From the NCBI RefSeq assembly GCF_965261555.1, contig NZ_OZ253465.1, positions 878,667 through 942,666 of the forward strand: 64,000 nucleotides of DNA. The letters are read 5' to 3'. Each line of letters opens with the position of its first letter. Positions within the stretch are counted from its first letter, which is position 1. The notes below the pieces were generated by a model. The model was not told the origin of the DNA, made no database searches, and was given only the letters and a program-made list of their open reading frames with translations. Shown here piece by piece: positions 6,151 to 64,000 of this stretch. The position numbers and the translations under genes were made by a program. This DNA is from Candidatus Palauibacter sp. GTDB taxonomy: Bacteria > Gemmatimonadota > Gemmatimonadetes > Palauibacterales > Palauibacteraceae.

Positions 6151-6183
6151 GTCGGATCCTTCGATTGGGGTGAACTTCACGAA

Positions 6184-47674: not shown

Positions 47675-47749
47675 CGGTACCAAGTCTCTTCCCGCTCGAA
47701 CAACCTGTAAAAGAACCCCTGCGAAGAACCCCAATGGAGGATGGACGGC

Positions 47750-47914
47750 ATGCCGGAATGTCCTGTATGCGGCGCGGAACCGACGATTTCGGACGACCCC
47801 GTCGAGGGCGAGTTGCTCGAATGTGAGGATTGCGGAGTCGAACTCGAGATCCTCGCCCTTGACCCCATCACCCTTGGAGAGGCGCCGGACGCGGAGGAGG
47901 ACTGGGGCGAATGA
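47750..47914 (+). CDS. lysW: Amino-group carrier protein LysW/ArgW (absent from the supplied ORF track because it is <60 aa)
   Basis: [54 protein letters not shown]. Two CxxC zinc-ribbon pairs and the hallmark C-terminal EDWGE. Stop overlaps the lysX ATG (ATGA). An alternative in-frame ATG lies at 47741. Confidence 0.75.
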
Positions 47915-49778: not shown

Positions 49779-49803
49779 CCGCGACACGCGGAGCTGAATC
49801 CTC

Positions 49804-50460: not shown

Positions 50461-50463
50461 TCG

Positions 50464-51276
50464 ATGCGACGCGAACCCGACGGGCTGCTTCTCGTCAAGA
50501 TCGGCGGCGGAGCATCCATCAATCTGGACGGGATCGCTCGCGACCTGGCGGACTTGTCCGGTCCGCTCGTCATCGTGCACGGCGCGAACGCGCTGCGCGA
50601 TTCCCTGGCCCGGAGGCTCGGGGTCGAGAAGCGCATCCTCACGTCCGTGTCCGGACACGAGAGCGTACGTTCCGACCGCGACCTGATCGACGTGATGCTC
50701 ATGGCCTACGCGGGCCTGCGAAACAAGCGCATCGTGGAACTGCTGCAGGGTCGGGGCGTGAACGCGGTCGGGCTCACCGGGCTCGACGGCGCGCTCGTGC
50801 GCGGCCGCCGCAACCGGGGAATCCGGGTGAGAGAGGGCGGCAAGACGCTGATCAAGCGGGACCTGTCCGGGAAACCCGTGGAGGTGAACCACAAGCTGAT
50901 GGCGTTGCTCCTCGACGGTGGTTTCACGCCGGTGGTGACCGTTCCGCTGATCGACGAACACAACGTGGCGATCAACTCGGAGAACGATGACGTCGTGACG
51001 CTGCTGAGCGACGAACTGCGAGCAGACTGCGTGATCCAGTTGATCGAGGCGCCCGGTTTCCTCGAGGACCCTGACGATCCGGGGTCGGTCGTCGCACGGC
51101 TCGCGCGCGCGGAGCTTGCGCGTCGGGAGGGCGAGGTCGCCGGGCGCATGAAGCGGAAGCTGCTCGCCCTGAGGCGACTCGTGGAATCCGGCACGACGCG
51201 CGTGGTGATCGCGGACGGGCGCGTCGAACGCCCGATCTCGGAGGCGCTGGCCGGACGGGGCACGGTCATCGGATGA
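50464..51276 (+). CDS. lysZ: LysZ/ArgB-type amino-acid kinase (acetylglutamate-kinase family)
   Basis: LLVKIGGGASINLDGIARDLADL...VIVHGANA... amino acid kinase fold. Stop overlaps the lysJ ATG (ATGA). Confidence 0.8.
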   Translation: MRREPDGLLLVKIGGGASINLDGIARDLADLSGPLVIVHGANALRDSLARRLGVEKRILTSVSGHESVRSDRDLIDVMLMAYAGLRNKRIVELLQGRGVNAVGLTGLDGALVRGRRNRGIRVREGGKTLIKRDLSGKPVEVNHKLMALLLDGGFTPVVTVPLIDEHNVAINSENDDVVTLLSDELRADCVIQLIEAPGFLEDPDDPGSVVARLARAELARREGEVAGRMKRKLLALRRLVESGTTRVVIADGRVERPISEALAGRGTVIG

Positions 51277-52427
51277 ACGTGCGCGAGACCGAACGGGAGT
51301 ACGCGCTCGAGGTGTTCCCGAAGCGCGACATCGCGGTCGTGCGGGGCGAGGGCGCATGCGTGTGGGACGACGAGGGTCGCCGCTACATCGATTGCGTGGG
51401 CGGGATCGGCGTGGCGAGCATCGGCCACGCCAACCCGGCCGTCGCCGAGGCGCTGGCGGAACAGGCTCGGGTGCTCGTGTCCTGTCCGGGGATCTTCTAC
51501 AACGATGTCCGGGCGCGGTTGCTGGCCGAACTCGTCTCGATCGCGCCGGCGGGGCTCACGCGCGCCTTCCTCTGCAACTCCGGGGCGGAGGCGGTGGAGG
51601 CGGCGATCAAGTTCGCGCGGCTTGCGACCGGACGGGCGGGGGTCGTGTCCGCGATGCGCGGCTTCCACGGGCGAACGATGGGAGCGCTGAGCGCGACGTA
51701 TAAAAGGGAGTACCGGGAGCCGTTCGAGCCGCTCGTGCCGGGGTTCTCGTTCGTGCCGTTCAACCACGTCGAGAAGCTGCGCGCGGCCGTGGGCGACGAC
51801 ACGGCGGCGGTCATCATCGAACCGGTGCAGGGAGAGGGCGGGGTGCGGCCGGCCAGCCCGGACTATCTGTCGGCGGCGCGCCGCATCTGCGACGAGGCCG
51901 GTGCGGTCCTCGTGTTCGACGAGATCCAGACGGGCTTCTGTCGCACCGGCCGCATGTTCGCCTGCGATCGCTACGGCGTTGCGCCGGACGTTCTCTGCCT
52001 CGCGAAGGCGATCGCGGGCGGCGTGCCACTGGGAGCGGTCCTGGCGCATGAACGGCTGCAGCCGCCGCCCGGGCGGCACGGCACGACTTTCGGCGGCAAT
52101 CCGCTCGCCTGCGCCGCCGCCCTGGCCGCGATCCGCTTCATGCGGGATGAGCGGCTCGACGAGCGGGCGGAGGCGCTGGGCGCCCGCTTCAGCGAGCGTT
52201 TCGCCCGGCGGCGGCCGGGTCGCGTGCGCGCCGTGCGGCAGGTCGGCCTCATGATCGGCGTCGAACTCCGCGAGCGCTGCCGACCCTACCTGGGAGCTCT
52301 CGCGGAGCGGGGCGTCCTCGCCCTCCCGGCCGGCACCACGGTCATCCGGCTGCTGCCGCCGCTCGTGATCACCGAAGCGCAGATCGACGAGGTGGCGGAT
52401 ACGCTGACGGAAGTACTGGCCGACTGA
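51273..52427 (+). CDS. lysJ: LysJ/ArgD-type class-III aminotransferase
   Basis: PLP-dependent acetylornithine-aminotransferase pattern ...DCVGGIGVASIGHANP...FLCNSGAEAVEAAIKFAR...VFDEIQTGFCRTGRMFA...LAKAIAGGVPLGAV... Confidence 0.8.
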   Translation: MNVRETEREYALEVFPKRDIAVVRGEGACVWDDEGRRYIDCVGGIGVASIGHANPAVAEALAEQARVLVSCPGIFYNDVRARLLAELVSIAPAGLTRAFLCNSGAEAVEAAIKFARLATGRAGVVSAMRGFHGRTMGALSATYKREYREPFEPLVPGFSFVPFNHVEKLRAAVGDDTAAVIIEPVQGEGGVRPASPDYLSAARRICDEAGAVLVFDEIQTGFCRTGRMFACDRYGVAPDVLCLAKAIAGGVPLGAVLAHERLQPPPGRHGTTFGGNPLACAAALAAIRFMRDERLDERAEALGARFSERFARRRPGRVRAVRQVGLMIGVELRERCRPYLGALAERGVLALPAGTTVIRLLPPLVITEAQIDEVADTLTEVLAD

Positions 52428-52713
52428 CGCCGACCGGGAGCCGCCGGACCGTCGATTCCCGGATGCCCGAATCGACCGGACTCCGGAATTCGTTCGCGGA
52501 GGGGGACTGGACGGTCGCGGAGGGGGATTGGACGGCGCTATGCCGAGCCGAGGAGGTCGCCACGAGTCTTGCGATCACGTGGACACCGCCCAATCCCCAC
52601 TCGCACGCATACGATAGCTGATCGTATGCGACCTGGGAGCGACAGGCAACCGTGAATTGACGACAATTTGACGACATTCGAGTGTTGTGGAGCGACGAGC
52701 AGCAGACTCCCGC

Positions 52714-55320
52714 TTACGGGGTCGCTAGACGAACCACAGCTGTCGTGCGTTCCGCAGTGTCCGGGGGAAACGTAATGCGTACGGTCGCGGGGTTGGCGAG
52801 GGCAGTCGTTGCGGCGCCCTCCACGACGTCAGGTTCGACTGTGGCGCCGAAGATTCCGAGCTCGTAGCTCCGACCCGCTAGCCCCTCCACCTCGAGAATC
52901 CAGCCACCGGGATCCGCGGTGAAGTCGAGGATGCGCAGGCCGCTGCTCCCTTGACCGGGCTCAAGGTCGATCCGGGGCGGCGCGATCGCGAGTCCACCAT
53001 TCCATGTCACGACGATTTCCGCGCGATCGCCCGCAGGGCCGGCCTCGCCGAGCGTCATCTCCACCGTTCCATCCTCGGTGACTTCGGTGGCTACGCCGTT
53101 CACGGTGATGGAGACGTCACGCGCGCCCGCCGGCACGTCGGGTACGAGGCCGAATGTCAGCGCAGGCCCCCTGGTCGTGAGCGTCGTCCGCTGCTCCCCG
53201 CCTTCCTCCGTCCACCGTTGTCGGATCTCCACGTCCGTCGTCGTCTCCCCGGCTCGGAGCCGTCTCACCGTCACGGCCGGCCAGTCCGGCGGGAGTTGCG
53301 GGGCGAGGCGCACGCGGTCCAGCGGCGCATCGGGTTCCCAGCCGATGACGCCGCGCACTAACGGTGTCACCAGGGCCGAGGTCGCGAAGAACTGGTGGGG
53401 GACGGTCTGATCGAGGGGCTCGTAGAACGTTCCGGACAGCAACTCCGGGTGTCGTCCCAGGCTCCAGTCGAAGGTCATCTGCTTCACCGCGTCCATGAGA
53501 TGGAAGCCGGCCCACGGACGCCGATACCGGTACTGGGCCCACGACACGTATCCCGTCACGAAGGGCCATACCGTTCCCATGTTGTACTGGAGGGGGTGAT
53601 AAAGTTCGCTCTCCGTGGAGAGCATGTGCGCGCCCCAGTCCGACGAGATCCGGTCGCTCGCGAGGTGGGCGAGGGTCGCCCGTGCGCGCGCCTCGTCGAA
53701 CAGGCCGAACGCCGCCGCCGTGGCAGGCCACACGGTGAGGTTGTCGTTGGTTCCGCCATCGGCGAGGATCCCGAAGGCATGGTGTCCCGCGTCGTCCAGC
53801 CAGTACGCGTCGTTCAGGGTCGCCCGCGCGCGGGGAGCGAGCTCCCGCGCCCGGCCCGCGATCCCCGCGTCGCCCATGCGTTCGGCCAACGCCATCGTCC
53901 CTTCAAGCGCCGCCACCCAGATCCCCGCCAGGTAGATGTCCTGGTGGAGCGCGGCCCCGAGGCCGCCGACCTCGACCGCCGCGAGCCCACCCACGGTGTT
54001 CTCGATGATCCCGTCCCCGTCCGTTTCGGCGGTGAGGCACCACGCCCAGGCGCGCCGGTACGCCGGCCACAGTTCCCGCAGGAGGTCGTCGTCGCCGCTC
54101 GCCCGCCAGTACTCGTAAAGGGCGACCATCCAGTAGGGCGTCGTGTCGGCGTGGTAGTAGGCGTACGGGTACACGTCGAACCACGGGATGCGCGCGGCCG
54201 CCTGAGAGATTTCGTGCGTGATCTTGCCGTCCTCGCGCTGGTAGGTCGCGAGAAAGGCGAGTTCCTCCGCCACCAGTTCCCACTGCCCGAGCGCCTCCAT
54301 GGCGAACATGGTCTGCGCCGCGTCGCCGCCGAAGAACCAGCCGAAGCCGGGACGGGTTCCGTTGCGGGAATGGCCCCACCCGGCGACGAACCCGCAGCCG
54401 AGGTCGGGGTTGCAGACGCGCTGCTCCTCCAGGTTGATCTTCGCCCACTCGAGGGCGAGGTCGAGCCGCGGATCCGGCGATTCGATGGAGACGGTGGAGG
54501 CGAGCACCGAGTCGGCCCATGCTCGCTTCGCGTCGTAGAGCGAGCGCGCTTCGGCGATCAGCCGTTCGTAGCTGGCGAAGACCTCCTCGCGGGGCGTGGT
54601 TCCGCCCGCCACCGCGATCGGGATGAATTCCCGCCGCGCGCGCTCCGGGTCGACCGGGATCACCATGGTGCGCGGCGCCTCGCCCAGTTGGTGCGCCGGG
54701 TGTTCCACGGAGTTCACGGCCCACGGAGAGCCGACGACGGCGTTCCTCTCCTGCAGGCTCTCGGAGAGCACGAAGACGCGACGGGCGGCGTCCCAGTAGG
54801 CGTACTGCCCCCCGATCGAACCCGGCCACATGTAGTTCAGCACGGGCTCGAACTCCGCGATGATCTCGAGCGGTTCCGGGCTGTCCACATCGAGCAGGAG
54901 CAGAAGGCCGGGGAGGTCGGCCGGCGCGAGGATGTGCTGGCGCACCCGGAAGGCGGCGTGGCTGTAGGTGATCGTCGTGAGTTCGGGCCGAACCTGCACG
55001 GTGCGCGCGACCTCGTCTCCCGGAATCGGCGTCCCGTAGGCCGGCGTCGAGAAGCCGAGCCGGAAACGGTTCCCGACCTTGAGGGGATGGACCCACAGTT
55101 CCGCTTCGCCCGTCTCGAGCCCCAGCCACGCGGACCGGGGCCCGGTGACGCCGAGATACTCGCCGGGACGCACGGGTCCCGCGAGTTCGATCGGCGAAGG
55201 CGCGATCTCGAAACGCGGAACCCCGGCTGCGGACTGGCCGGAGCCGTTCGCGGGCAGGCCCGCGGCCACCGCGACGAAGAGCGCAGGAAGCGCGACGCGC
55301 GAGTTACTTTCGAGAGCCAT
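52714..55320 (-). CDS. Secreted (alpha/alpha)6-barrel glycoside hydrolase, amylo-alpha-1,6-glucosidase/GDE_C-like
   Basis: Signal peptide. N-terminal beta-sandwich. Central six-hairpin region (...GCGFVAGWGHSRNGTRPGFGWFFGGDAAQTMFAMEALGQWE...GKITHEISQ...YWMVALYEYWRASGD...). C-terminal beta domains. Confidence 0.55.
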   Translation of the reverse strand: MALESNSRVALPALFVAVAAGLPANGSGQSAAGVPRFEIAPSPIELAGPVRPGEYLGVTGPRSAWLGLETGEAELWVHPLKVGNRFRLGFSTPAYGTPIPGDEVARTVQVRPELTTITYSHAAFRVRQHILAPADLPGLLLLLDVDSPEPLEIIAEFEPVLNYMWPGSIGGQYAYWDAARRVFVLSESLQERNAVVGSPWAVNSVEHPAHQLGEAPRTMVIPVDPERARREFIPIAVAGGTTPREEVFASYERLIAEARSLYDAKRAWADSVLASTVSIESPDPRLDLALEWAKINLEEQRVCNPDLGCGFVAGWGHSRNGTRPGFGWFFGGDAAQTMFAMEALGQWELVAEELAFLATYQREDGKITHEISQAAARIPWFDVYPYAYYHADTTPYWMVALYEYWRASGDDDLLRELWPAYRRAWAWCLTAETDGDGIIENTVGGLAAVEVGGLGAALHQDIYLAGIWVAALEGTMALAERMGDAGIAGRARELAPRARATLNDAYWLDDAGHHAFGILADGGTNDNLTVWPATAAAFGLFDEARARATLAHLASDRISSDWGAHMLSTESELYHPLQYNMGTVWPFVTGYVSWAQYRYRRPWAGFHLMDAVKQMTFDWSLGRHPELLSGTFYEPLDQTVPHQFFATSALVTPLVRGVIGWEPDAPLDRVRLAPQLPPDWPAVTVRRLRAGETTTDVEIRQRWTEEGGEQRTTLTTRGPALTFGLVPDVPAGARDVSITVNGVATEVTEDGTVEMTLGEAGPAGDRAEIVVTWNGGLAIAPPRIDLEPGQGSSGLRILDFTADPGGWILEVEGLAGRSYELGIFGATVEPDVVEGAATTALANPATVRITFPPDTAERTTAVVRLATP

Positions 55321-55396
55321 CGTCCCTCCGGTCGTCTCGGATCGGTGCCCTAAACCCTGGTTGACTCGCCGGCATCACGGTAGCCAAGTTCGCCAC

Positions 55397-56434
55397 ATGA
55401 CGACCAGAAGCAATCGAACGTCGACGTACAGCGCTGCGCTGCCGCCGTTTCCCGAAGGCTGGTATTTCATCGGAAAGCGCGCGTCCATCGAGCGCGCGAA
55501 GCTCATCGAGAAGACGTGGATGGGCGAGGAGATCGTCGCCTGGGCCGACGACGAGGGCCGCATCTGCGTGGCGGACGCCTTCTGTCCGCACCTGGGCTCG
55601 CACATGGGACCCGCCGCGGGCGGCCTCGTGCGCGACGGCTGTCTCGTGTGCCCCTTTCACGGGTTCGAATTCGATACCGCCGGCCAGTGCGTGGCCACGC
55701 CCAATGCCCCGCCCCCGAAAGCGGCGAGGTTGAAGCTCTACGAGACGCGGGAGATCCTCGGCATGATCTTCGCCTGGTGGGGGAGCGGCGGGAGACCGCC
55801 GCAGTGGCACCTGCCCGATGAGCCACCCACGGGCGGTGAGTGGTCCGGATTGCGATCCACGACCATGCGCTTCCGCGGCCACCCCCAGGAGACCGCCGAA
55901 AACTCCGTTGATGTGGAGCACCTGGGCTACACGCACGGCTACGACGATGTGGTGCCGACCGACTTTTCGGTCGATGGAGCCTACCTGAAGAGTTGCTTCG
56001 ACTTCAAGAGCGTTCGCCGGATCGCGGGTCTGGCGGATATCCGCTCCGAGGTCTCGGCCGTCACACACGTCCATGGACTCGGCTATTCCTTCGTTGAAAT
56101 CCACGAGACGGCGGTCGGCATAAGGTCGCGCATGTGGGTGCTTTCGACACCGGTCGACGGCGAGTCGGTGGATCTGACGCTGGTCAGCCAGGTGCATGAG
56201 GTCCGCAAACCCCGACGGCGCATCGCGGGTCTGGCCTTCCTGCCCGTGGCGCTGCGCCACAGGCTGCTGAATCTCTTCGTCATACGGGAGGAGAGACGGT
56301 TCGTCCTGCAGGACGTGGTCATTTGGGAAAGGAAGCGCTACCGGTCCCCGCCCAGGCTGTGCCGAGCCGACGGCCCCATCGGAAAGTACCGCAGATACTG
56401 CCGGCAGTTCTACCCGGACCAGGGGGGACGCTAG
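55397..56434 (+). CDS. Rieske [2Fe-2S] non-haem-iron oxygenase (KshA/SdmA/Neverland-type alpha subunit)
   Basis: Rieske ligands CPHLGSHM...CPFHGF. Mononuclear iron motif ENSVDVEHLGYTHG (D-x2-H-x4-H). About 345 aa. Convergent with the P450 gene and overlapping its stop by 4 nt. Confidence 0.75.
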   Translation: MTTRSNRTSTYSAALPPFPEGWYFIGKRASIERAKLIEKTWMGEEIVAWADDEGRICVADAFCPHLGSHMGPAAGGLVRDGCLVCPFHGFEFDTAGQCVATPNAPPPKAARLKLYETREILGMIFAWWGSGGRPPQWHLPDEPPTGGEWSGLRSTTMRFRGHPQETAENSVDVEHLGYTHGYDDVVPTDFSVDGAYLKSCFDFKSVRRIAGLADIRSEVSAVTHVHGLGYSFVEIHETAVGIRSRMWVLSTPVDGESVDLTLVSQVHEVRKPRRRIAGLAFLPVALRHRLLNLFVIREERRFVLQDVVIWERKRYRSPPRLCRADGPIGKYRRYCRQFYPDQGGR

Positions 56435-58476
56435 ACCGGTATCTCGCGGTGTTGCTCGGCGATGTGGAACATGAGCTTCTTGCTCGGCTTCATCGACGGA
56501 AGCGGGTCGAACTTGAACTTGTAGCCCGCCGGCACCTCGAGCCTGAAGTAGTGCGCGATCATCAGCACGTTGACCGCCAGTTGCAGTTCCATCCACCGGA
56601 AACCGAGACAGGTATGCGTGCCCAGCCCATACGGCGCGTACCCCGGACTCTTATGCTCGTCGCGTGGCGGCAGGTAGCGGTCGATGTCGAACGAGAACGG
56701 GTCCGGGAATACATCTTTCATGTAATGGGAGGCCGTAGAGGCGATGAAAATGTTGCTCCCCACCGGCAGTTCGTAGCCCTCGACCACACACGAGTTCATC
56801 ACGGTCCGCATGGACCCCGGGACGACCGGATACATGCGGAGGAATTCCATCAGGAATCGGTGGGTCACATCGATCGACGACCCCGTGATGGCGTCGCCAT
56901 CCGGGTCGCCATCCCCGAACAGCGCATCGGCTTCGCTCCGGATTCGCTCGTAGAGTTCCGGCTGCGTCGCCATGGCGTACACCGCAAAGCTGAGCGCGTC
57001 GCCGAGGTACACGCTGGCGACCAGCGCCGCCGAGAGCGCGAAACGCAGATTCGATTGCGGCACGAACTGCGGGTCGCTCCCGTGCAGGCTGAGCCAGTCG
57101 TCCGCCAGGTCCCGCGGGCATCCGGCTCGCTGTTCGGTGGTATGCACGCTCTGGATCCGCTTCAGCAACGTGTCGACGGTGGCTGCGCGGCGTTTCATGC
57201 CCGGCGTCTTCAGCATGAAGCCGGGCATGGCCTTCATGATCTTGACGGTGAGCGCGCGCTCCTTGTACACCGACAGATCGTCGAAGATGTCCTGTGAATC
57301 GACGCCGACGGACAGAGGCGAAATCTGCGCGTTGGCCATTCGGCGGCAGAGCGACCTCGCCTGGTAGGTGTCGCCGACCTTCCAGTCCGCCATGAAGTTG
57401 CGGGCATACTCGTAGAGAACGTCCGCCTGGTCCGCGAGTCTCCCGCGGGAATACGCCGGCGAGATGGCCTTGCGAAGCCGGAAATGGTCGGCGCCATCCA
57501 GCGACGGCAACACGCCGTTCGCGCCGTAGACTTTCTCGAAGTCGGCGAAATAGTCCTTGGTTCTCACGTAGATCCGGCTGTGCCGGTGTGCCCAGCGATT
57601 CGTCTCCGGGCCGACGAGGAAGAGCATGGGTTCCTTGAACGGCGGGCGGAGCTCGAACACCGGCCCGTACTCCTTCGCAAGTTCCGCGATGATCGCGGGA
57701 AGGTTGCCGGAGCGCAGATGCGGGTTGAGCAGCACGTGACGCAGCTTGACCTTCGGAATGTGCTTGGTGAGGGCCGAACGGCGAAGCAGGGGGCCGGCGA
57801 GGTTGTGTACGACGGCGGCGGCGATGGACCGGCCGATCAGATCCATCCGGCAGATGAACTCGATGCGTTCCTCCGCCTCCTCATCGAGTTGGAAGATGTA
57901 GCGAAAGACATCGCACGTATTGACGAGGCAGATGATGATGACGTCTCTCGGATCCGGAATCTCGTCGGAGAAGATGACCCTCCCGATTCGCGTCCTGGTG
58001 AACTGACGAGCGGTGCCTTCCTCGGCGGCGCCATCCGGTTCGGACTCCCAGGCGCCGCGAGCCAGCGTCCAGAAGTCGCCATCGTGGTGTTCCAGGATGT
58101 TCAATCCGACCAGGCGCTCCAGCGTCCGGTCGATGATGGACTCCGCCCGCGGGGCGAGCCGTTCGATCCAGTACCGGGCGGTCCGTCGATGGGGTGCTTC
58201 CGCGATTTCCTTTAGAAAGGGGTCCAGGACGGGGTCGCCCGTTTCGGTGGGGTCCACGAGGAAAAGGGATTCCATGTCCGTGTCGATGCGCGACAAAAGG
58301 GAGAGTTCCGCGAGCACGGCGCCGGCGACGGCGCAGTTCAACTCCCAGCCGGGGACCTGGTGGAAGTAGCCGCTCTCCTCGTTGAGGAGCATCAGGATCA
58401 ACTCCTCGGGCAGGCTCAGCGCTTGATTGGAAACACTCCCTGTAGGGACGACCATAGGGCTCGACCGCCCGTCCAT
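56431..58476 (-). CDS. Cytochrome P450 fused to an N-terminal GPP34/GOLPH3-like domain
   Basis: C-terminal ~470 aa carry the ExxR K-helix (EFLRMYP), PERF-like PDPFSFDIDRY and haem-thiolate loop YGLGTHTCLG. The I-helix (VYLGDALSF) lacks the usual acid-Thr pair. N-terminal ~200 aa match the GPP34 family (LSLPEELILMLLNEESGYFHQVPGWELNCAVAGAVLAELSLLSRI...). ATG at 58476. An alternative GTG lies at 58503. Confidence 0.75.
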   Translation of the reverse strand: MDGRSSPMVVPTGSVSNQALSLPEELILMLLNEESGYFHQVPGWELNCAVAGAVLAELSLLSRIDTDMESLFLVDPTETGDPVLDPFLKEIAEAPHRRTARYWIERLAPRAESIIDRTLERLVGLNILEHHDGDFWTLARGAWESEPDGAAEEGTARQFTRTRIGRVIFSDEIPDPRDVIIICLVNTCDVFRYIFQLDEEAEERIEFICRMDLIGRSIAAAVVHNLAGPLLRRSALTKHIPKVKLRHVLLNPHLRSGNLPAIIAELAKEYGPVFELRPPFKEPMLFLVGPETNRWAHRHSRIYVRTKDYFADFEKVYGANGVLPSLDGADHFRLRKAISPAYSRGRLADQADVLYEYARNFMADWKVGDTYQARSLCRRMANAQISPLSVGVDSQDIFDDLSVYKERALTVKIMKAMPGFMLKTPGMKRRAATVDTLLKRIQSVHTTEQRAGCPRDLADDWLSLHGSDPQFVPQSNLRFALSAALVASVYLGDALSFAVYAMATQPELYERIRSEADALFGDGDPDGDAITGSSIDVTHRFLMEFLRMYPVVPGSMRTVMNSCVVEGYELPVGSNIFIASTASHYMKDVFPDPFSFDIDRYLPPRDEHKSPGYAPYGLGTHTCLGFRWMELQLAVNVLMIAHYFRLEVPAGYKFKFDPLPSMKPSKKLMFHIAEQHREIPV

Positions 58477-58530
58477 GTAATTTTGAGAAGCACCGGACGG
58501 CACGGCTTGTTCCGGTTGCCGTCGCCATTG

Positions 58531-59061
58531 TCAAGGATGGCGTGACTCGAACATCCAGGTCAAGCCAACGTGCAGGGCCGTTGCATCCGCTTCGGACTCC
58601 GAGGCCCCGCCGGCGCGGAGGGCAGCGGCACGTCCCGCATCCGCACCCTCGATCCAGGAGTGCGAGTAGTCGAAACCGAAGTTCACGCCGCCTCGATACC
58701 AATTCTGCCTGAGTCCGACATCGACCTCGCCGAAGCCGGGTAGCGGCCGCGCGACTTCGTCGTCGGCCGTACCGAAATGACCCCACAGCGCCACGAACGT
58801 GGGTTGCAGGCTGTCACTCAAGTTCTTGGATGCCGCCAGTGCGAGAGTGGTGCCATCTCCCGCATCCCCACCCTCGAACCACGCATACGTATAGCCACCG
58901 AAGGAGCCTGCAAAAAACGACCCGGCGCCCGTGGCGTCGGTTGCGCGCGGTTCACGGAACACCCTGGAAGACTCTGATCCGTCGTGCGGAAGCGGATGCC
59001 GGCACCGGGGGCGAGGACGGTGCTCGCCAACTCGGCCCCCAGGCCAGCGAGTAAAGCGCAC
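58531..59061 (-). pseudogene. Probable remnant of an outer-membrane beta-barrel protein (C-terminal ~120 aa only, no signal peptide)
   Basis: ...GYTYAWFEGGDAGDGTTLALAASKNLSDSLQPTFVALWGHFG...VDVGLRQNWYRGGVNFGFDYSHSWIEG...ATALHVGLTWMFE has alternating amphipathic strands and a terminal W.F as in OMP barrels. The N-terminal part is Arg-rich and lacks a signal sequence. Confidence 0.3.
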
Positions 59062-59260
59062 TCGGTCGATGACCGATGCTGCTTCAGGTGACGGTCGAGC
59101 CGCTCTGCGAGCTTGGCGGCTGGCGGAACGCCAAGACGGTGCTCAACTGCTACCAGAGGCCCGACGAGGGACAGCGGGGGGCATCCGATTGGTGGAGGCG
59201 GTCTCGGCCCGGACGGCAACGGCGACTGGCAGGCCGTGGCGGGGCTTTTGCCACGGGCTG

Positions 59261-60295
59261 CTAGGGTTTGCGAGCCAGGAAACAGTACAGCGGCGTAAAG
59301 ATACCCGTCTTGCCGCCCGCAACGTACGCCTCCGCGGTTCGATCGAGGAGCCGTGCGACTGCCGCCGAGCCATTCGGAAAGAACCGCAGTACCTCGGCCA
59401 GCTTCGATCCCGCGATGATCACCTTGCGGCCCCACGCAAGCCCGCACAAGGCGCTCCCCAACGTCCCGTGGCGACTCTCCATGGGTTGATACCAGGGCGT
59501 GGAGGGTCCTTCCCGAACCTCCCAGTCGCTCCCCTCGATGACCTGGAATCCCGCCCCTTCGAGCGCGTGATTCACTTCCCCGAAGGTGGCGATGTCGTGC
59601 AGCGCAATACCGCGCATGAGGTCCCGCTTGATGGTCCGGTGCCGTGCGTTCCGCGGATCGAACCGGTCCGTCAGACACATTTCCTGACCCCAGAACAGGG
59701 CACCCGGTTTCAGCACGCGGAAAATCTCGGCGAAGGCGCGTTGCTTGTCCTGCGCATGGCACGTTGACTCTATGGCGTAACCCGCGTCGAAGGTGTCGGC
59801 CTCGATGGCGCTCATGTCCGCGAAGCTGCACTTCCTGAAGTCGGTCATGTCCTCCAGCCCCGCCTCGGCGTTCAACTTCTTCGCCTCCGCCAGCTGGATC
59901 TCATTGATGTTGATTCCCGTGACCCTGACACCCGCCTCACGGACGACGCGGCGCATGGGGCCGCCGACTCCACAACCGACGTCGACCACCTTCATGCCCT
60001 GTTGAAGCTCCAACCGGGAGATCATCGCCCGCTGGTGCCGGACCTTGGACTCCTCCGGACTTTCGTCAGGCGTGAGGGGCGCGAAGTGCAGGGATTCACC
60101 CCAGCTCCACACCATGATGCCGTTGCAAAGCTCGTAGTAGTCCCTGACCGTTTCCTCGTGGTCGTAGCCGCCCTCGCCTCCGGCCCGCCCGACCCATCCA
60201 TCGAAGTGTCGCACGCGATGCGCCACGTCCGATCCCCGGTACGCTTCCGTCAGCGCTTTCGACAGTTCGCCCAGCCGCTTCGCGTGGCGCTTCAA
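59261..60295 (-). CDS. Sterol C-24 methyltransferase (Erg6/SMT1-type SAM-dependent methyltransferase with Sterol_MT_C domain)
   Basis: End-to-end similarity to Erg6. YYELCNGIMVWSWGESLHFAP (Erg6 [20 protein letters not shown]). SAM motif VVDVGCGVGGP. AGYAIESTCHA (AIEATCHAP). FRVLKPGALF (YKVLKPGGTF). TPWYQPM (IPWYYPL). C-terminal VAGGKTGIFTPLYCFLARKP (VAGGKSKLFTPMMLFVARKP). A TTG start at 60295 abuts the RND stop. An alternative TTG at 60355 would overlap it. Confidence 0.85.
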   Translation of the reverse strand: MKRHAKRLGELSKALTEAYRGSDVAHRVRHFDGWVGRAGGEGGYDHEETVRDYYELCNGIMVWSWGESLHFAPLTPDESPEESKVRHQRAMISRLELQQGMKVVDVGCGVGGPMRRVVREAGVRVTGININEIQLAEAKKLNAEAGLEDMTDFRKCSFADMSAIEADTFDAGYAIESTCHAQDKQRAFAEIFRVLKPGALFWGQEMCLTDRFDPRNARHRTIKRDLMRGIALHDIATFGEVNHALEGAGFQVIEGSDWEVREGPSTPWYQPMESRHGTLGSALCGLAWGRKVIIAGSKLAEVLRFFPNGSAAVARLLDRTAEAYVAGGKTGIFTPLYCFLARKP

Positions 60296-63200
60296 GCGGG
60301 CAACTCGCGTCGCTGCTCCGAGCGGCCGCGCGACCTTGCCCGCCGCGCCAGCCAACGCTGGTGGATCGAGGTCAGCGCCGGCACGAGGAACATCAGCAGG
60401 ACCGTGGTGAAGAGGATGCCGCAGCCGATCGAAGCGGAGAAGGGCACGAAGAACTGGGCCTGAATCGCGTCTTCGAGGATGAGGGGCGTGAAGCCGAGGA
60501 AGGTGGTCAGCGACGTCAGCATGATCGGGCGGAAACGCCCCTTGGCACCCTCGATGATCGCTTCTCGTGCCGGCAGGCCTTCCTCGAACTCCTGGTCGAT
60601 GAAGTCGATCATGACCAGGGAGTCGTTCACCACCACGCCGGCGAGGCCGAAGACCCCGATGAAGGACTCGGAGCTGAGTGCGACACCCAGGACCCAGTGG
60701 CCCAGAATCACCCCGATCAACCCGAACGGGATGATAGCCATAATGATGATCGGCTTGGTATACGAGCGCAGCGGAATCGCGAGCAGCGCGAAGATCATGA
60801 TCATGGCGATCCCGAAGCCGGGGCCCAGCGCATTCAGGGATTCCAGCTGCTGCTGCGGTTCACCTCCGAAGGTGTAGGTCAGTTCCGGGTCCTCGGCGAC
60901 GATCCCCGCGAGGATGTCGTCTTCCAGAATGCGGTTGGCGCGCCCGCCGGATATCACCTCCGGATCCACATCCGCAGTGACCCTGACGATGCGCTGGCCG
61001 TCCTGGCGATGGATGGCGGGCGGCGACATGCCCGAGCTCAGCGAAGCCACACGGCTCACCGGGACCTCGGCGCCGCCGGCCGTCCGAACCAGCGAACTTT
61101 CGATGTCGGTGATCGAGTTGCGCTGCTCCTCGGGCAGCCGCACGTACACCCGAACCTCTTCGCGGCCGCGCTGCACCCTTAGCGCCTCCGCGCCGAAGAA
61201 CGCGGCTCGCGTCTGCCAGGCGAGGTCGTCGAGGGTGAGACCGAGAGTTCGTGCCTCGGGTAGCAGGCCCAGCTGGATTTCCGGGATGCCGGGGGTGTGG
61301 TCGGAGCGTATGTCGTGGACGCCGCCCACTTCGCGGAGGCGATTGACGACCGTGGTTGCGACCCCGGGGAGCTGCCCCGGGTCCGGATGGGACAGTACGG
61401 CCTCCACGGGGTTGCCCAGGTCGTAGATCTGGCCGCTGATGGTGACCGCGCGCACATAGGGCAGGACACCCAGTTCCTCGCGCCACGCCTGCACGACTTC
61501 CGCGGTTGGAATCCGCCGGTGCTGCGCGTCCAGGAGCTTGAACGAGATGCTGGCGACATTGGGCTCCGGGTTCAACCTGAGGTTGGGACTGAGCCCCCCT
61601 CCATCGACCCGCGGCCGTTGACCGACCGTAATCGTTACCCCGGACAGCAGGGGCGGTGCATCGGCGGGCCTGTCTGCGGAGATCCGCTCGATGACCCGGT
61701 GGCCGGCCGCCTCCAACTCGCGCGCCACCTCGTAGGTTCGCTGGGCCGTCGTCCCGTCCGGCATCTCCAGGGTGGCCGTTGCGAAATCGCCTTCGACCTC
61801 CGTGGCAAAGGTGAACGGAACGATGCCCGCCGGCAGCAAGGCAAGGCACAGGACGAGCAGGGCGATTGCGGACGCGAGCGTCACTCCGGGTCGATCGGTC
61901 GCGAAACTCACGCCGCGGTGCAGGGGGCCCTGCACGAATCTGCCCAACTGCAGATCGACCTGAGCCTGAATCCGGGATACGAATCGCCCAAGGCGCGTTC
62001 GGGGCGCCCACTCCGGTCCGTGGAGGTGGTGAGAGAGGTGGTTGGGCAACACCAGCAGCGATTCGATCACCGAAATCACCAGCATCGCGATGACGATGGT
62101 CGGCAGCGCCTTCCAGATTTCTCCGATCCCTCCTGGAATGAAGAGCAGAGGAGAGAACGCGGCGATGGTGGTCAGCACTGCGAAGATGAGAGGCACTTTG
62201 ATTCGCCGGGCCCCGCGTATCGCCGCGACGACGCCCGGCGTGCCCCGCATTCGTTCCAGGTGGATGTACTCGGAGACGACGACCGCATCGTCCACCACGA
62301 TTCCGATGGCGAGCACGAACGAGAAGAGGGAGACCGCGTGGATGGCGAGGTCGAACGCCATCATCGCGGCCAGGGCACCGACGCCGGACACCCCGAGGCC
62401 GACGGCTACCCAGAAGGCAAGCCGGAGTTCGAGAAACAGTCCCAAGGCCAACAGCACCAGCAACAGCCCGAGAAGACCATTCTTCATGAGGATGCCGGCG
62501 CGCTCCTCGAAGGCATCGGATGCGTCGTTCAAGATGGTGACGCCCACGCCGTCCGGGAGTGACGGGGCCACCTCGTCGGCGACGTACTGCCGAACGGCGC
62601 CCGCCACATTCATCACCTTCTCGCCCTCGGCCCTCGATACCTCGACGAAGACGGCCGGCAGACCGTCGTGCCGGACGATCAGGTCCAGGTCCTGGAAGCC
62701 GTCGCGCACCTCGGCGATGTCGCCCAGTCGTACCACCGTGCCGTCCCCGCGGCTGAGCAGTACGATCTCCTCGAAGTCCTGCTGATCGTAGCTCTGTCCC
62801 AGGGTGCGCACCCTCACCTGGGACTGCTCGGTGTCGATGCTGCCGGCGGACAGATCCAGCGAACTGCGGCGAATTGTGTTTGCGATATCGGGGAGCGTGA
62901 GTCCAAGCGCTCTGAGCCGCTGCAGCGGCACTTCGATCGAGATCTCATAGTTGCGGATGCCGCTCGTCTCTACCTGCGAGACGGAAGGCAGCGCGGCGAG
63001 TTCATCCTCGATCCGGTAGGCAAGCTCCTTCAACGTTCGCTCGGGGGCATCGCCGTAGACGGCCAGGCGCATGATGCTCTCGGCGTTGGTCAGCTCCCTG
63101 ATCTGGGGCCGCTCGGCTTCTCCCGGGAACGTCTGGATTCGGCCGACCGCCGCTTCCACCTCGGCCACGGCATCGTTCATCTCCGTGCCCGACCGCATTT

Positions 63201-63513
63201 CCACCCTGACCGACGCCATGCCCGGGGCCGCCACGGACTTCACCGCCTTCACGTTGCCCAGCCCTTCGACCTCGTCCTCGATCTTGGCGACGATGGACTC
63301 CTCGACCTCCTCGGGGGTGGCGCCCGGATAGGCGACGGAGACCTCGACCTGGTTGAAGGGCACGGTGGGCCAGGCTTCCAGCTCGAGCCCGAAGAACGAG
63401 GCCACGCCCGCGACGAGAATGCCGACCATCAGCAGATTGGCGGCCACGCTGTTGCTCGCCATGTAGGCGATGGGGCCGCCGGGTTCGCCGTGATTCCTTC
63501 CGTTCGAAGTCAT
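60292..63513 (-). CDS. RND efflux transporter permease (AcrB/HAE1-type, 12 TM, two large periplasmic loops)
   Basis: 1073 aa. Canonical AcrB-like organisation and motifs (...SIVAKIEDEVEGL..., ...AIGIVVDDAVVVSE..., ...GLAGVVVNDSLVMIDF...). Confidence 0.85.
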   Translation of the reverse strand: MTSNGRNHGEPGGPIAYMASNSVAANLLMVGILVAGVASFFGLELEAWPTVPFNQVEVSVAYPGATPEEVEESIVAKIEDEVEGLGNVKAVKSVAAPGMASVRVEMRSGTEMNDAVAEVEAAVGRIQTFPGEAERPQIRELTNAESIMRLAVYGDAPERTLKELAYRIEDELAALPSVSQVETSGIRNYEISIEVPLQRLRALGLTLPDIANTIRRSSLDLSAGSIDTEQSQVRVRTLGQSYDQQDFEEIVLLSRGDGTVVRLGDIAEVRDGFQDLDLIVRHDGLPAVFVEVSRAEGEKVMNVAGAVRQYVADEVAPSLPDGVGVTILNDASDAFEERAGILMKNGLLGLLLVLLALGLFLELRLAFWVAVGLGVSGVGALAAMMAFDLAIHAVSLFSFVLAIGIVVDDAVVVSEYIHLERMRGTPGVVAAIRGARRIKVPLIFAVLTTIAAFSPLLFIPGGIGEIWKALPTIVIAMLVISVIESLLVLPNHLSHHLHGPEWAPRTRLGRFVSRIQAQVDLQLGRFVQGPLHRGVSFATDRPGVTLASAIALLVLCLALLPAGIVPFTFATEVEGDFATATLEMPDGTTAQRTYEVARELEAAGHRVIERISADRPADAPPLLSGVTITVGQRPRVDGGGLSPNLRLNPEPNVASISFKLLDAQHRRIPTAEVVQAWREELGVLPYVRAVTISGQIYDLGNPVEAVLSHPDPGQLPGVATTVVNRLREVGGVHDIRSDHTPGIPEIQLGLLPEARTLGLTLDDLAWQTRAAFFGAEALRVQRGREEVRVYVRLPEEQRNSITDIESSLVRTAGGAEVPVSRVASLSSGMSPPAIHRQDGQRIVRVTADVDPEVISGGRANRILEDDILAGIVAEDPELTYTFGGEPQQQLESLNALGPGFGIAMIMIFALLAIPLRSYTKPIIIMAIIPFGLIGVILGHWVLGVALSSESFIGVFGLAGVVVNDSLVMIDFIDQEFEEGLPAREAIIEGAKGRFRPIMLTSLTTFLGFTPLILEDAIQAQFFVPFSASIGCGILFTTVLLMFLVPALTSIHQRWLARRARSRGRSEQRRELPA

Positions 63514-63650
63514 TGTGCCGGTTCAGCCTCGGTCGGAACGGGGATCGTCGTTATCAGGAGGCTACAGGTAAGAAGGGGTGGCAGGCGAGGCTTCCCGAAT
63601 CGGGCCGGACCGTCCACGGCGGCCGTCCGGCCCGGAACCCGCGTCGGAGC

Positions 63651-64000
63651 TCACCGCGCCGGATCGGTTCCGGTCTGAACGCGCATGCCTTCGGCGGCGA
63701 ATTGAATGCCACCGGTGATCACGGCCTGGCCGTTCTCGAGGGAACCGGTCACAAATACCTCGTCGTCAGCGCGCTGCAGCACGCGGACCGGAATGATGCT
63801 CACGACACCCGCTTCGCTCACCGCCCAGACTTCGTTGCCCGTTTGTAGCGCCGCGCGTGGTACGCGAAAATAATCCTCCGGTGAAACACCGTCGATTTCC
63901 ACTTCCACGAACTTGCCGACCAGCAGGGGAGGGCTGCCGGACGCGCTGGATGCGCTCGCGGAGACGCCCGCCGCAAAGGGGTCGGACACGCGCACGATCA
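63651..64000 (-). CDS. RND periplasmic adaptor (membrane fusion protein), C-terminal part; gene continues beyond the window
   Basis: C-terminal beta-barrel/MP domain of HlyD-family adaptors (...GKFVEVEIDG...VPRAALQTGNEVWAVSEAGVVSIIPVRVLQRADDEVFVTGSL.NGQAVITGG...). Start lies past position 64000. Confidence 0.6.
   Translation of the reverse strand, partial: IVRVSDPFAAGVSASASSASGSPPLLVGKFVEVEIDGVSPEDYFRVPRAALQTGNEVWAVSEAGVVSIIPVRVLQRADDEVFVTGSLENGQAVITGGIQFAAEGMRVQTGTDPAR

What the first reader, a model, noticed from the sequence alone, without database searches (positions are those of the whole stretch)
59261..64000. SMT gene is translationally coupled to an MFP-RND efflux pump
On the minus strand the order is adaptor (partial), RND permease, SMT. 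The SMT TTG start lies either directly adjacent to the RND stop codon (60292-60295) or 60 nt inside it. A biosynthetic lipid methyltransferase co-transcribed with a tripartite efflux pump suggests a dedicated export or outer-membrane trafficking route for the methylated sterol or triterpenoid. This would be analogous to, but in an RND family distinct from, HpnN/Bst-type transporters.
Basis: inference. Interest (0 to 1): 0.75.

Follow-up and report, generated by a model that had tools for sequence, protein, structure and literature searches.

The report
Sterol-gene-linked RND efflux pump operon
A sterol methyltransferase gene directly follows, and overlaps by four bases, an RND efflux-pump gene in a Gemmatimonadota genome whose relatives are largely sponge and coral symbionts; this pump family lies next to sterol genes in at least five bacterial phyla, which suggests an undescribed route for moving bacterial sterols across the cell envelope.

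Summary
On the minus strand lie an adaptor fragment (63651-64000), an ACR_tran RND permease (60292-63513) and a sterol methyltransferase (SMT, 59261-60295). The SMT's TTG start overlaps the RND stop as TTGA.

The overlap is a rearrangement scar, not a conserved design. The last nine RND codons and the stop codon come from the 3' end of a deleted GPP34-P450 gene, which in close relatives lies between RND and SMT. The ancestral SMT start codon (ATG) is AAG here, and a newly created TTG replaces it.

The wider inference holds up well. This RND is about 70% or more identical across phyla. Its nearest other RND clusters are at most 45% identical. It is linked to SMT in 45 of 77 informative SMT loci: Gemmatimonadota, Acidobacteriota, Latescibacterota, Opitutales and Rhodothermales. 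It is absent from Chloroflexota and Nitrospirales loci. All six RND homologues sampled independently also lie beside sterol genes, one of them beside an oxidosqualene-cyclase cluster. The complete form is OEP-MFP-RND-P450-SMT. The pump is not HpnN/BstA-like.

Sterol transport itself is inferred, not shown. I found no paper describing this linkage. I rate it a new variant of a known kind, with interest about 0.7.

The parts
63651..64000 (-). C-terminal part of the periplasmic adaptor (MFP); the gene runs off the window end
   Evidence: TIGR01730 RND_mfp 56.8 bits. It is 70-80% identical to full-length MFPs directly upstream of the orthologous RND in L001, L007, L023 and L062.
63514..63650 (.). 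137-nt gap between the MFP stop and the RND ATG
   Evidence: No promoter-like or terminator-like match. Homology to close relatives that lack the MFP begins about 30-55 nt upstream of the ATG.
60292..63513 (-). RND permease, 1073 aa, ACR_tran type
   Evidence: Pfam ACR_tran 532 bits, full length. The hydropathy profile (12 peaks at score 1.6 or above after merging overlaps, one expected C-terminal segment not detected) and two periplasmic loops of about 300 aa fit the 1+5/1+5 RND layout. TM4 reads GIVVDDA and TM10 reads GVVVNDS. It is 93-95% identical to L012, L013, L016 and L018, and about 70% identical across phyla.
60292..60321 (-). Last nine RND codons plus the stop (SEQRRELPA*), derived from the 3' end of a deleted GPP34-P450 gene
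   Evidence: The RND of relatives ends ...RSRGRADVTGMPEPASA*. Their P450 ends ...(A/S)EQRRELPA*, 11 nt before the SMT ATG. blastn breakpoints fall at 60317-60323.
60292..60295 (-). TTGA: the SMT start TTG overlaps the RND stop TGA
   Evidence: The TTG arose from CTGA to TTGA, as seen by comparison with L002, L012 and L016.
59261..60295 (-). Sterol methyltransferase (SMT), 344 aa, TTG start
   Evidence: Sterol_MT_C plus Methyltransf_11/25. Identical to the NCBI protein P0001. dN/dS is 0.21-0.36 against relatives.
60278..60280 (-). AAG codon at the position of the ancestral, otherwise conserved SMT start ATG
   Evidence: N-terminal comparison of 80 loci: the conserved start reads M(R/Q)LGxLS.
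58504..59260 (.). 757-nt spacer between SMT and the P450 gene; it holds a non-conserved 176-aa ORF (58531-59061, minus strand) whose C-terminal half looks like a beta-barrel fragment
   Evidence: No Pfam or NCBIfam match and no hit in other loci. The hairpin at the SMT stop is not better than shuffled sequence.
56431..58503 (-). GPP34 (GOLPH3-like) domain fused to a cytochrome P450, 690 aa
   Evidence: Pfam GPP34 111 bits plus p450 129 bits. Only weakly CYP51-like (E about 1e-19). It falls outside the clade of RND-linked P450s.
55397..56434 (+). Rieske oxygenase with a KshA-type catalytic domain, convergent with the P450 gene
   Evidence: Pfam Rieske plus KshA_C. Best PDB match is KshA, E 4e-23. 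Not an SdmA equivalog: 30 bits against a cut-off of 600.
52714..55320 (-). GH116/DUF608-like glycoside hydrolase, a conserved neighbour of the island
   Evidence: Pfam DUF608 and MGH1-like_GH. It is 83-86% identical in L001, L006, L007 and L024. A GH116 gene also flanks the SMT in L082.

Best explanation
The window holds one version of a horizontally spread, recombining sterol-tailoring and transport module. Its fullest form is the operon OEP-MFP-RND-(GPP34-P450)-SMT with a convergent KshA-like Rieske oxygenase.

In this genome a deletion of about 2.1-2.6 kb removed the P450 gene that lay between RND and SMT. The deletion fused the RND reading frame to the last nine P450 codons. The RND gene therefore now ends at the former P450 stop codon, which the SMT's replacement TTG start overlaps. 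MFP, RND and SMT are most likely transcribed together, and the SMT is probably translated by termination-reinitiation at TTGA.

Functionally (inferred), the ACR_tran-type pump, with its adaptor and an outer-membrane channel, takes sterols or the products of the P450, SMT and Rieske enzymes from the inner membrane or periplasm. It moves them to the outer membrane or out of the cell. This parallels what HpnN does for hopanoids and BstA for 4-methylsterols, but uses a different RND branch and a full tripartite assembly.
For: Shown:
- Gene identities and the TTGA overlap.
- The deletion scar: the window RND ends ...RSRGR|SEQRRELPA*, whereas relatives have an RND ending ...RSRGRADVTGMPEPASA* and a P450 ending ...(A/S)EQRRELPA*. 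blastn breakpoints fall at 60317-60323.
- ATG changed to AAG, with a compensating TTG in all four ATG-less sequences.
- SMT dN/dS of 0.21-0.36 and RND dN/dS of 0.22-0.27, which indicates that both genes are under purifying selection.
- An orthologous RND (about 70% identity or more) lies within about 9 kb of the SMT, upstream on its strand in nearly all cases, in 45 of 77 informative loci: Acidobacteriota 8/8, Latescibacterota 10/10, Gemmatimonadota 21/23, Opitutales 1/1, Rhodothermales 1/1. It is absent in 0/11 Chloroflexota and 0/10 Nitrospirales.
- In most loci the gaps are operon-tight: RND stop to P450 start about 0-40 nt in most, with 1-nt overlaps in four loci; P450 stop to SMT ATG 8-54 nt in most; RND stop to SMT ATG 17 nt in five of the six Acidobacteriota RND-SMT loci (68 nt in L028).
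- All six RND homologues picked independently of the SMT lie next to GPP34-P450, Rieske, SMT or an ERG24-P450-squalene epoxidase/OSC cluster, in differing orders and orientations.
- OEP orthologues lie upstream of the MFP in 11 SMT loci.
- The clade is isolated: the best 50%-cluster representative is 56% identical and the next are at most 45%.
- Island GC is 0.63-0.66 against 0.68-0.72 in the flanking genes.

From my own knowledge: ACR_tran pumps such as AcrAB-TolC, MtrCDE and CmeABC handle bile salts and steroid hormones.
Against: There is no transcript, protein or lipid evidence, so the transport substrate is inferred from gene neighbourhood only. SMT loci in Nitrospirales (diderm bacteria) lack the pump, so it is not required for SMT function. 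The pump's steadiest neighbour is the P450 rather than the SMT, so the substrate could be a P450 product that is not a membrane sterol. In close relatives (L012, L013, L016) no MFP lies next to the RND. No OEP is visible in this window, because the MFP runs off its end. No Shine-Dalgarno-like sequence is evident before the TTG. An internal promoter inside the RND 3' end cannot be excluded. The P450 is separated from the SMT by a 757-nt spacer and may be a separate transcription unit.
Confidence: 0.55

Rival explanations
1. The cluster makes, or converts, a secreted steroid-like metabolite such as a signal or defence compound, possibly from host sterols taken up by the cell. The pump exports that product rather than trafficking a structural membrane sterol.
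For: The RND's most constant partner is the unusual GPP34-P450. Some RND-P450-Rieske loci have no SMT within 8 kb (L081, L084, L085). The KshA-type Rieske and FAD amine-oxidase-like genes resemble steroid-transforming enzymes. TonB-dependent receptors lie beside the module in L004 and L083. No cyclase gene is present in this window.
Against: L086 places the same pump beside a de novo ERG24-P450-squalene epoxidase/OSC cluster. Sponge symbionts of these phyla are reported to carry cyclase clusters (PMC9531527). No product is known.
Confidence: 0.2
2. The pump is a general protective efflux system, for example against host or microbial toxins or toxic sterol intermediates. It travels with the sterol genes on a mobile island without being part of their pathway.
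For: The nearest solved relatives are multidrug pumps such as OqxB-like proteins, MdtB and MexK. The island has a mosaic ancestry and lower GC than its flanks. The pump is dispensable in Nitrospirales and Chloroflexota SMT loci.
Against: Linkage persists through many rearrangements and in at least five phyla, and holds in six of six independently sampled RND loci. The spacing is operon-tight, with stop/start overlaps. The clade is tight, with nearest relatives at most 45% identical, and every member sampled lies beside sterol genes.
Confidence: 0.15
3. The SMT in this genome is not properly expressed. Loss of its ATG and the deletion upstream have left a decaying gene, and the TTGA overlap has no function.
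For: The canonical ATG is AAG. Only TTG starts remain, without an obvious ribosome-binding site. The locus has clearly been rearranged.
Against: The 344-codon frame is intact. dN/dS is 0.21-0.36, similar to the RND. Three other genomes lost the same ATG and carry the same TTG. The SMT motifs and the C-terminal domain are preserved.
Confidence: 0.08

Closest known systems
HpnN (hopanoid transporter; RND family HAE3, Pfam MMPL; PDB 5KHS)
   Same: An RND-superfamily inner-membrane protein encoded with triterpenoid biosynthesis genes. It moves the lipid towards the outer membrane.
   Different: It belongs to a different RND branch. The window protein matches ACR_tran over its full length at 532 bits, but MMPL at only 20.1 bits (below cut-off) and HAE3 TIGR00921 at 31 bits against a cut-off of 352. 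HpnN works without an MFP/OEP tripartite assembly (my own knowledge).
BstA-BstB-BstC sterol transport system of Methylococcus capsulatus (PMC10942540)
   Same: It is the known precedent for a bacterial sterol transporter of the RND superfamily encoded next to sterol genes (sdmA/sdmB, sometimes osc/smo).
   Different: BstA is HpnN-like (MMPL Pfam) and is partnered by a periplasmic binding protein and an outer-membrane-associated protein. The module here instead uses an adaptor (HlyD-type) and an OEP channel, and is linked to SMT, GPP34-P450 and a KshA-like Rieske rather than to SdmAB.
AcrAB-TolC, MtrCDE, CmeABC and OqxAB (HAE1 multidrug pumps)
   Same: Same Pfam family, the same 12-helix topology with two large periplasmic loops, the same TM4 Asp-Asp pair, an adjacent MFP and (in 15 related loci) an OEP. 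These pumps are known to expel bile salts and steroid hormones (my own knowledge).
   Different: Only about 250 bits to the best solved structure. Below every NCBIfam subfamily cut-off (428 against 1250; 321 against 940). The TM10 lysine (AcrB K940) is Asn, as in the surrounding uncharacterised subfamily. The gene lies inside sterol-gene operons rather than under a local drug-responsive regulator.
NPC1, Patched and Dispatched (eukaryotic sterol-handling RND proteins)
   Same: RND-superfamily proteins that move sterols. They carry acidic residues in both TM4 and TM10 (my own knowledge).
   Different: There is no detectable specific relationship and no sterol-sensing-domain match was seen. The resemblance is limited to the superfamily fold and was not tested further.
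Sponge-symbiont SMT and sterol gene clusters (Brown et al. 2023, PMC10070321; Kelly et al. 2022, PMC9531527)
   Same: The same kind of organisms and the same enzyme family. SMTs and ERG24-CYP51-cyclase clusters are spread by horizontal transfer among sponge symbionts of many phyla.
   Different: Neither paper contains the words RND or efflux, and Brown et al. also has no occurrence of transporter, P450 or Rieske. The clusters they list hold SMO/OSC, ERG11, ERG24, SMT and sdmAB, with true SdmA homologues at 44-47% identity. The module here has a non-SdmA Rieske, a GPP34-P450 and the pump.

Membership tests
ACR_tran / HAE1-like RND permease | Full-length match to the AcrB/AcrD/AcrF family profile | tested here: met
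   PF00873 532.5 bits, profile positions 8-1016 of 1021.
ACR_tran / HAE1-like RND permease | Twelve transmembrane helices arranged 1+5/1+5 with two periplasmic loops of about 300 residues | tested here: met
   Hydropathy scan finds helices at 23-41, 347-488 (five), 549-567 and 895-1047, with loops at 42-346 and 568-894. One helix in the last bundle falls below the threshold.
ACR_tran / HAE1-like RND permease | Proton-relay residues: Asp-Asp in TM4 and Lys in TM10 (AcrB D407, D408, K940) | tested here: inconclusive
   TM4 GIVVDDA is present. At the K940 position the protein has Asn followed by Asp (GVVVNDS), shown by alignment to OqxB-like and MexK structures. This is invariant in 120 homologues and common in the nearest representative clusters. 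It is therefore a variant relay typical of an uncharacterised subfamily.
ACR_tran / HAE1-like RND permease | Reaches the curated score of a named NCBIfam RND subfamily | tested here: not met
   RND_permease_2 scores 428 against 1250, TIGR00915 321 against 940, and CusA/CzcA TIGR00914 241 against 701.
Tripartite RND efflux system | Adjacent periplasmic adaptor (MFP) gene | tested here: met
   An MFP C-terminal fragment lies at 63651-64000. Orthologous full-length MFPs lie upstream of the RND in 22 loci.
Tripartite RND efflux system | Outer-membrane factor (OEP/TolC-like) | tested here: inconclusive
   Not visible in the window, which ends inside the MFP. An OEP is present upstream of the MFP in 11 SMT loci and in L083-L086. 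It is absent next to the MFP in L001 and L007.
HAE3 / HpnN / BstA-type triterpenoid transporter | Match to the MMPL or HAE3 profiles at family level | tested here: not met
   PF03176 scores 20.1 against 20.5, over the C-terminal bundle only. TIGR00921 scores 31 against 351.9.
Sterol C-24 methyltransferase (ERG6/SMT) | SAM-methyltransferase core plus the Sterol_MT_C domain | tested here: met
   Methyltransf_11 scores 65 bits and Sterol_MT_C 55.9 against 21.7. The SMT-like motifs WGESLHF and IESTCHA are visible in the translation (motif identity is from my own knowledge).
Sterol C-24 methyltransferase (ERG6/SMT) | Methylates a sterol side chain | not testable with these tools
   Related symbiont SMTs were active in vitro (PMC10070321), but this protein and its closest relatives could not be mapped to the enzymes tested there.
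Translationally coupled gene pair | Stop of the upstream gene overlaps or abuts the start of the downstream gene on the same strand | tested here: met
   TTGA at 60295-60292. The TTG is supported as the start by comparison with ATG-less relatives.
Translationally coupled gene pair | Downstream translation depends on upstream translation | not testable with these tools
   This needs reporter fusions or ribosome profiling.
Conserved operon or gene neighbourhood | Same-strand linkage with short gaps that recurs in distant genomes | tested here: met
   Linked in 45 of 77 informative loci in five named phyla or orders plus unclassified MAGs. Gaps are mostly under 60 nt. Six of six RND-centred loci are linked to sterol genes.
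SdmA (4beta-methylsterol monooxygenase), tested for the neighbouring Rieske gene | Reaches the NCBIfam equivalog score | tested here: not met
   NF052579 scores 30 bits against 600. The Pfam KshA_C domain scores 85.7 bits.
CYP51 (sterol 14-demethylase), tested for the neighbouring P450 gene | Strong similarity to CYP51 structures | tested here: not met
   The best CYP51 match (M. capsulatus, 6mi0) has E 1.5e-19 at 73 bits, no better than unrelated P450s.

The most novel reading that the evidence does not exclude
OEP-MFP-RND-(GPP34-P450)-SMT is a horizontally mobile sterol secretion system. Through it, diderm sponge and coral symbionts would deliver side-chain-alkylated or otherwise tailored sterols to their outer membrane and onward to the host. 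Bacterial enzymes and a bacterial exporter would then contribute directly to the unusual sterol pools of sponges, and to the sterane biomarkers derived from them.
Probability: 0.2. Interest if true: 0.85.

Novelty: new variant of a known kind. Interest (0 to 1): 0.7.

Why it matters
How bacteria move sterols is known from a single system, BstABC of a methanotroph, and by analogy from HpnN for hopanoids. The evidence here points to a second, unrelated solution. It is a complete tripartite ACR_tran-type pump built into sterol-tailoring operons, and it is shared by horizontal transfer among symbionts of at least five phyla.

If the pump carries sterols, it offers a concrete, testable mechanism for symbiont-made or symbiont-modified sterols to leave the bacterial cell. 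That bears on the dispute over whether sponge-specific sterols and their fossil steranes are animal or bacterial products.

The work also gives experimenters defined targets: the pump, the GPP34-P450 fusion and the non-SdmA Rieske oxygenase. Finally, the local TTGA overlap is a clear example of how a deletion can create a new stop/start junction while preserving operon expression.

Tried and rejected
- **Own contig.** I tried to fetch the window's own contig beyond position 64000 through exact-protein look-ups of the SMT and the RND. Neither is on record, so the rest of the MFP and any OEP in this genome remain unseen.
- **Promoters and terminators.** The scan of 56000-64000 found no promoter-like site and one terminator-like site inside the RND gene, fewer than in shuffled sequence. 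A 15-nt inverted repeat at the SMT stop (59226-59264) and a T-run near 58917 looked like terminators, but they fold no better than shuffles. I rejected both as evidence.
- **Rfam.** A scan of 52000-64000 found nothing at E up to 0.1.
- **TM10 Asn as a sterol signature.** I considered that Asn in place of AcrB K940 might mark a Patched-like sterol pump. I rejected this because the same Asn occurs in all 75 of 143 long nearest representative clusters where the motif could be located, and none showed Lys.
- **Identity of the neighbours.** The Rieske gene is not SdmA and the P450 is not CYP51.
- **HpnN/BstA membership of the pump.** Rejected on profile scores.
- **Simple relocation of the P450.** The window's P450 is only 63-65% identical to the RND-linked P450s of relatives and falls outside their clade. 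The upstream P450 was therefore lost, and a different lineage sits downstream.
- **The 176-aa ORF in the SMT-P450 spacer.** It has no family match and no hit in 80 loci. I left it as unexplained.
- **Other sterol genes in the window.** The Pfam-scanned ORFs of 8305-52427 hold no cyclase, squalene epoxidase or other sterol gene; 1-8304 and a few shorter ORFs were not scanned.
- **Literature.** Searches for an RND or efflux pump in bacterial or sponge-symbiont sterol clusters found none.

Full report
**1. What is in the sequence**

The window has about 68% GC. On the minus strand at its right end lie three genes.
- The last 115 codons of a periplasmic adaptor occupy 63651-64000 (TIGR01730, 56.8 bits).
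- After a 137-nt gap comes a 1073-codon RND permease at 60292-63513. It matches Pfam ACR_tran at 532 bits over virtually the whole profile.
- Next is a sterol methyltransferase carrying the Sterol_MT_C domain, at 59261-60295.

The RND stop TGA is at 60294-60292. An in-frame TTG lies at 60295-60293, giving TTGA, and another lies at 60355. An identical 344-aa protein is deposited for Candidatus Palauibacter sp., a member of the Gemmatimonadota.

**2. The SMT start**

In 80 related loci the SMT begins with a conserved ATG, reading M(R/Q)LGxLS. In the window that codon is AAG (60280-60278). The only in-frame starts upstream of it are the two TTGs.

Three other genomes (L008, L013, L021) also lost the ATG, and they carry TTG at the same position five codons upstream. 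Genomes that keep the ATG have CTG or GTG there. I take TTG 60295 as the working start. The gene is intact and evolves under purifying selection, with dN/dS of 0.21-0.36, comparable to 0.22-0.27 for the RND.

**3. How the overlap arose**

The closest relatives by RND sequence are L012, L013, L016 and L018, at 93-95% identity. In L012 and L013 the order is RND, GPP34-P450, SMT. In L016 and L018 the divergent P450 (43% identical) lies on the opposite strand.

blastn shows RND homology ending at 60317-60323. SMT-side homology begins there and maps to the last 25 nt or so of the relatives' P450 gene. The peptides make this explicit.
- The RND of relatives ends ...HQRWLARRARSRGRADVTGMPEPASA*.
- Their P450 ends ...(A/S)EQRRELPA*, 11 nt before the SMT ATG.
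- The window RND ends ...HQRWLARRARSRGRSEQRRELPA*.

A deletion of roughly 2.1-2.6 kb therefore fused the RND in frame to the last nine P450 codons. The RND now uses the former P450 stop codon. A C-to-T change turned CTGA into TTGA.

The P450 that remains in the window (56431-58503) lies 757 nt beyond the SMT. It is only 63-65% identical to the relatives' upstream P450s. In a neighbour-joining tree it falls outside the clade of RND-linked P450s, among the copies found downstream of the SMT in Chloroflexota and Nitrospirales. The TTGA coupling is thus a young, lineage-specific scar inherited from a P450/SMT junction. It is not a conserved design.

**4. Is the pump really tied to sterol genes?**

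- **SMT-centred loci.** Of 80 loci fetched with the SMT (546 relatives were found; all 80 are metagenome-assembled genomes, and many names point to sponge and coral bins), 45 of 77 informative loci carry an RND orthologue of about 70% identity or more within about 9 kb of the SMT, upstream on its strand in nearly all.
- **Taxa.** Linkage holds in Acidobacteriota 8/8, Latescibacterota 10/10, Gemmatimonadota 21/23, Opitutales 1/1, Rhodothermales 1/1 and unclassified MAGs 4/10. It is absent in Chloroflexota 0/11 and Nitrospirales 0/10, and in the few informative Binatia, Nitrospinota and Actinomycetota loci.
- **Spacing.** In most loci the RND stop to P450 start is about 0-40 nt, with 1-nt overlaps in L047, L049, L071 and L077. 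P450 stop to SMT ATG is 8-54 nt in most. In five of the six Acidobacteriota loci with the order RND-SMT-P450 the RND stop lies 17 nt before the SMT ATG (68 nt in L028).
- **Adaptor and channel.** Orthologous MFPs precede the RND in 22 loci, and OEP channel genes precede the MFP in 11. The complete form is therefore OEP-MFP-RND-P450-SMT, usually with a convergent KshA-like Rieske gene.
- **RND-centred loci.** Six RND homologues of 72-86% identity, chosen without regard to the SMT, all lie beside sterol genes.
  - L081: RND with convergent amine-oxidase-like, GPP34-P450 and Rieske genes.
  - L082: P450-RND with a convergent SMT and GH116 gene.
  - L083: Rieske, amine-oxidase-like, MFP and OEP genes, divergent from P450-RND, followed by an SMT and a TonB-dependent receptor.
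  - L084: OEP-MFP-RND-P450 with a convergent Rieske gene.
  - L085: RND with a convergent P450, and MFP and OEP genes about 5 kb away.
  - L086: OEP-MFP-RND beside FA_hydroxylase, Rieske, ERG4_ERG24, a P450 and a fused squalene epoxidase/oxidosqualene cyclase.

Linkage that survives changes of order and orientation is the classic signature of functional coupling.

The clade is also discrete. Against 1.84 billion cluster representatives, the best is 56% identical and the next are 45% or less, while members from different phyla are about 70% identical. The island genes have lower GC (0.63-0.66) than the flanking genes (0.68-0.72). Ancestry is mosaic: the window RND is 93-95% identical to L012-type loci but 71% to L001, whereas the SMT, Rieske and GH116 genes are 84-86% identical to L001. 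Together these points indicate horizontal spread and frequent recombination of the module.

**5. What kind of pump**

The hydropathy profile is consistent with the 1+5/1+5 RND topology with two large periplasmic loops, although one helix of the last bundle falls below the threshold. The TM4 Asp-Asp pair is present.

The protein is far from HpnN/BstA-type transporters. It is also not a canonical AcrB. The best solved relatives (OqxB-like, MdtB, MexK) score about 250 bits. No NCBIfam subfamily cut-off is reached. The TM10 lysine is replaced by Asn. That replacement is general in the surrounding uncharacterised subfamily, so it says nothing specific about sterols. No close relative with a known drug or metal specificity exists.

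**6. Neighbours**

- The P450 is fused to a GPP34 (GOLPH3-like) domain and is not CYP51.
- The Rieske protein has a KshA-type catalytic domain and is not SdmA.
- A GH116-like glycosidase is a conserved flank.
- The Pfam-scanned ORFs of the rest of the window hold no cyclase or epoxidase; the first 8.3 kb was not scanned.

Published work reports cyclase clusters spreading horizontally among sponge symbionts of these phyla (PMC9531527) and active symbiont SMTs (PMC10070321). The substrate may therefore be made by the bacterium itself, but I could not check this genome.

**7. Mechanism proposed**

- *Shown:* gene identities, the overlap, the deletion scar, the start-codon replacement, and the conserved neighbourhood.
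- *Inferred:* MFP-RND-SMT form one transcript. The SMT is translated by reinitiation at TTGA. The pump, with its adaptor and an outer-membrane channel, moves sterols or the products of the P450, SMT and Rieske enzymes from the inner membrane or periplasm to the outer membrane or outside the cell.

The pump is present in the diderm phyla listed and absent from Chloroflexota and Actinomycetota loci, which (to my knowledge) include many monoderm lineages. That fits an envelope-spanning role. Its absence from diderm Nitrospirales shows that it is an accessory, not a requirement.

Three rival readings remain open: export of a secreted steroid-like metabolite (possibly derived from host sterols), generic protective efflux carried along on a mobile island, and a poorly expressed SMT.

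**8. Comparison with known systems and novelty**

RND-superfamily transporters dedicated to triterpenoid lipids are known: HpnN, and BstA (PMC10942540). Here a different RND branch and a full tripartite assembly are recruited, and the genes are embedded in operons with sterol-tailoring enzymes.

Neither of the two most relevant papers mentions RND or efflux, and Brown et al. also lacks the words transporter, P450 and Rieske. Seven full-text searches found no description of this linkage. I rate it a new variant of a known kind.

**9. Verdict**

Interest is about 0.7.

Noticed in passing
window 56431-58503 (minus); also L001-L086: A GPP34 (GOLPH3-like, PF05719) domain is fused to the N-terminus of a cytochrome P450 of about 430 aa. 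The fusion is conserved in nearly all SMT loci and in five of six RND-centred loci. The P450 part is only weakly CYP51-like. A full-text search for GPP34, P450, sterol and bacteria together found no paper.
   Followed up: partly
window 52714-55320 (minus); L001, L006, L007, L024, L082: A GH116/DUF608-like glycoside hydrolase, the family of GBA2 glucosylceramidase, is a conserved neighbour of the Rieske and SMT genes at 83-86% identity. It might act on steryl glycosides. This was not tested.
   Followed up: no
window 55397-56434 (plus): The Rieske oxygenase next to the sterol genes has a KshA-type C-terminal domain but scores only 30 bits against the SdmA equivalog model (cut-off 600). It is a different sterol-associated Rieske enzyme from the known bacterial C-4 demethylase.
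   Followed up: partly
window 58504-59260: The 757-nt spacer between SMT and P450 is absent from other loci. It holds a 176-aa ORF whose C-terminal half looks like an outer-membrane beta-barrel fragment ending GLTWMF. It also holds a 52-nt imperfect direct repeat (58618-58669 and 58843-58894). Its origin is unexplained.
   Followed up: partly
L012 11444-11608; L049 11157-11393; L013 11190-11441: Gene remnants lie beside the SMT in relatives. L012 and L049 carry short 3' fragments of a window-type P450 downstream of the SMT. L013 carries an inverted fragment of the RND 5' end. The island is a hot spot for rearrangement, and an ancestor may have had P450 genes on both sides of the SMT.
   Followed up: partly
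window 46970-52427; L001 14784-15224; L082 1-3090: The sterol island sits at the same chromosomal site in the window, L001 and L082. That site is next to a RimK/LysX-type ATP-grasp, amino-acid kinase and class-III aminotransferase cluster. The internal order and the ancestry of the island differ between the three genomes.
   Followed up: partly
L086 11326-19177: An OEP-MFP-RND set of the same clade lies beside FA_hydroxylase, a Rieske/KshA_C gene, ERG4_ERG24, a 423-aa P450 and a single ORF that fuses squalene epoxidase to oxidosqualene cyclase. This places the pump next to a de novo sterol pathway.
   Followed up: no
L004 4279-6732; L083 12444-15401: TonB-dependent outer-membrane receptors lie directly beside the RND/SMT genes in Acidobacteriota loci. 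This hints at uptake of a related substrate in those lineages.
   Followed up: no
L032, L042, L046, L050, L053, L063, L066: Second and third SMT paralogues, 38-44% identical to the main one, lie within a few kb in Nitrospirales, Nitrospinota and unclassified MAGs that lack the pump.
   Followed up: no
window 37429-40902 (plus) and 25963-27813 (minus): A TonB-dependent receptor with a CarboxypepD_reg domain, and a second CarboxypepD_reg protein, lie among many amidohydrolase and peptidase genes. This looks like ordinary nutrient-scavenging content unrelated to the finding.
   Followed up: no
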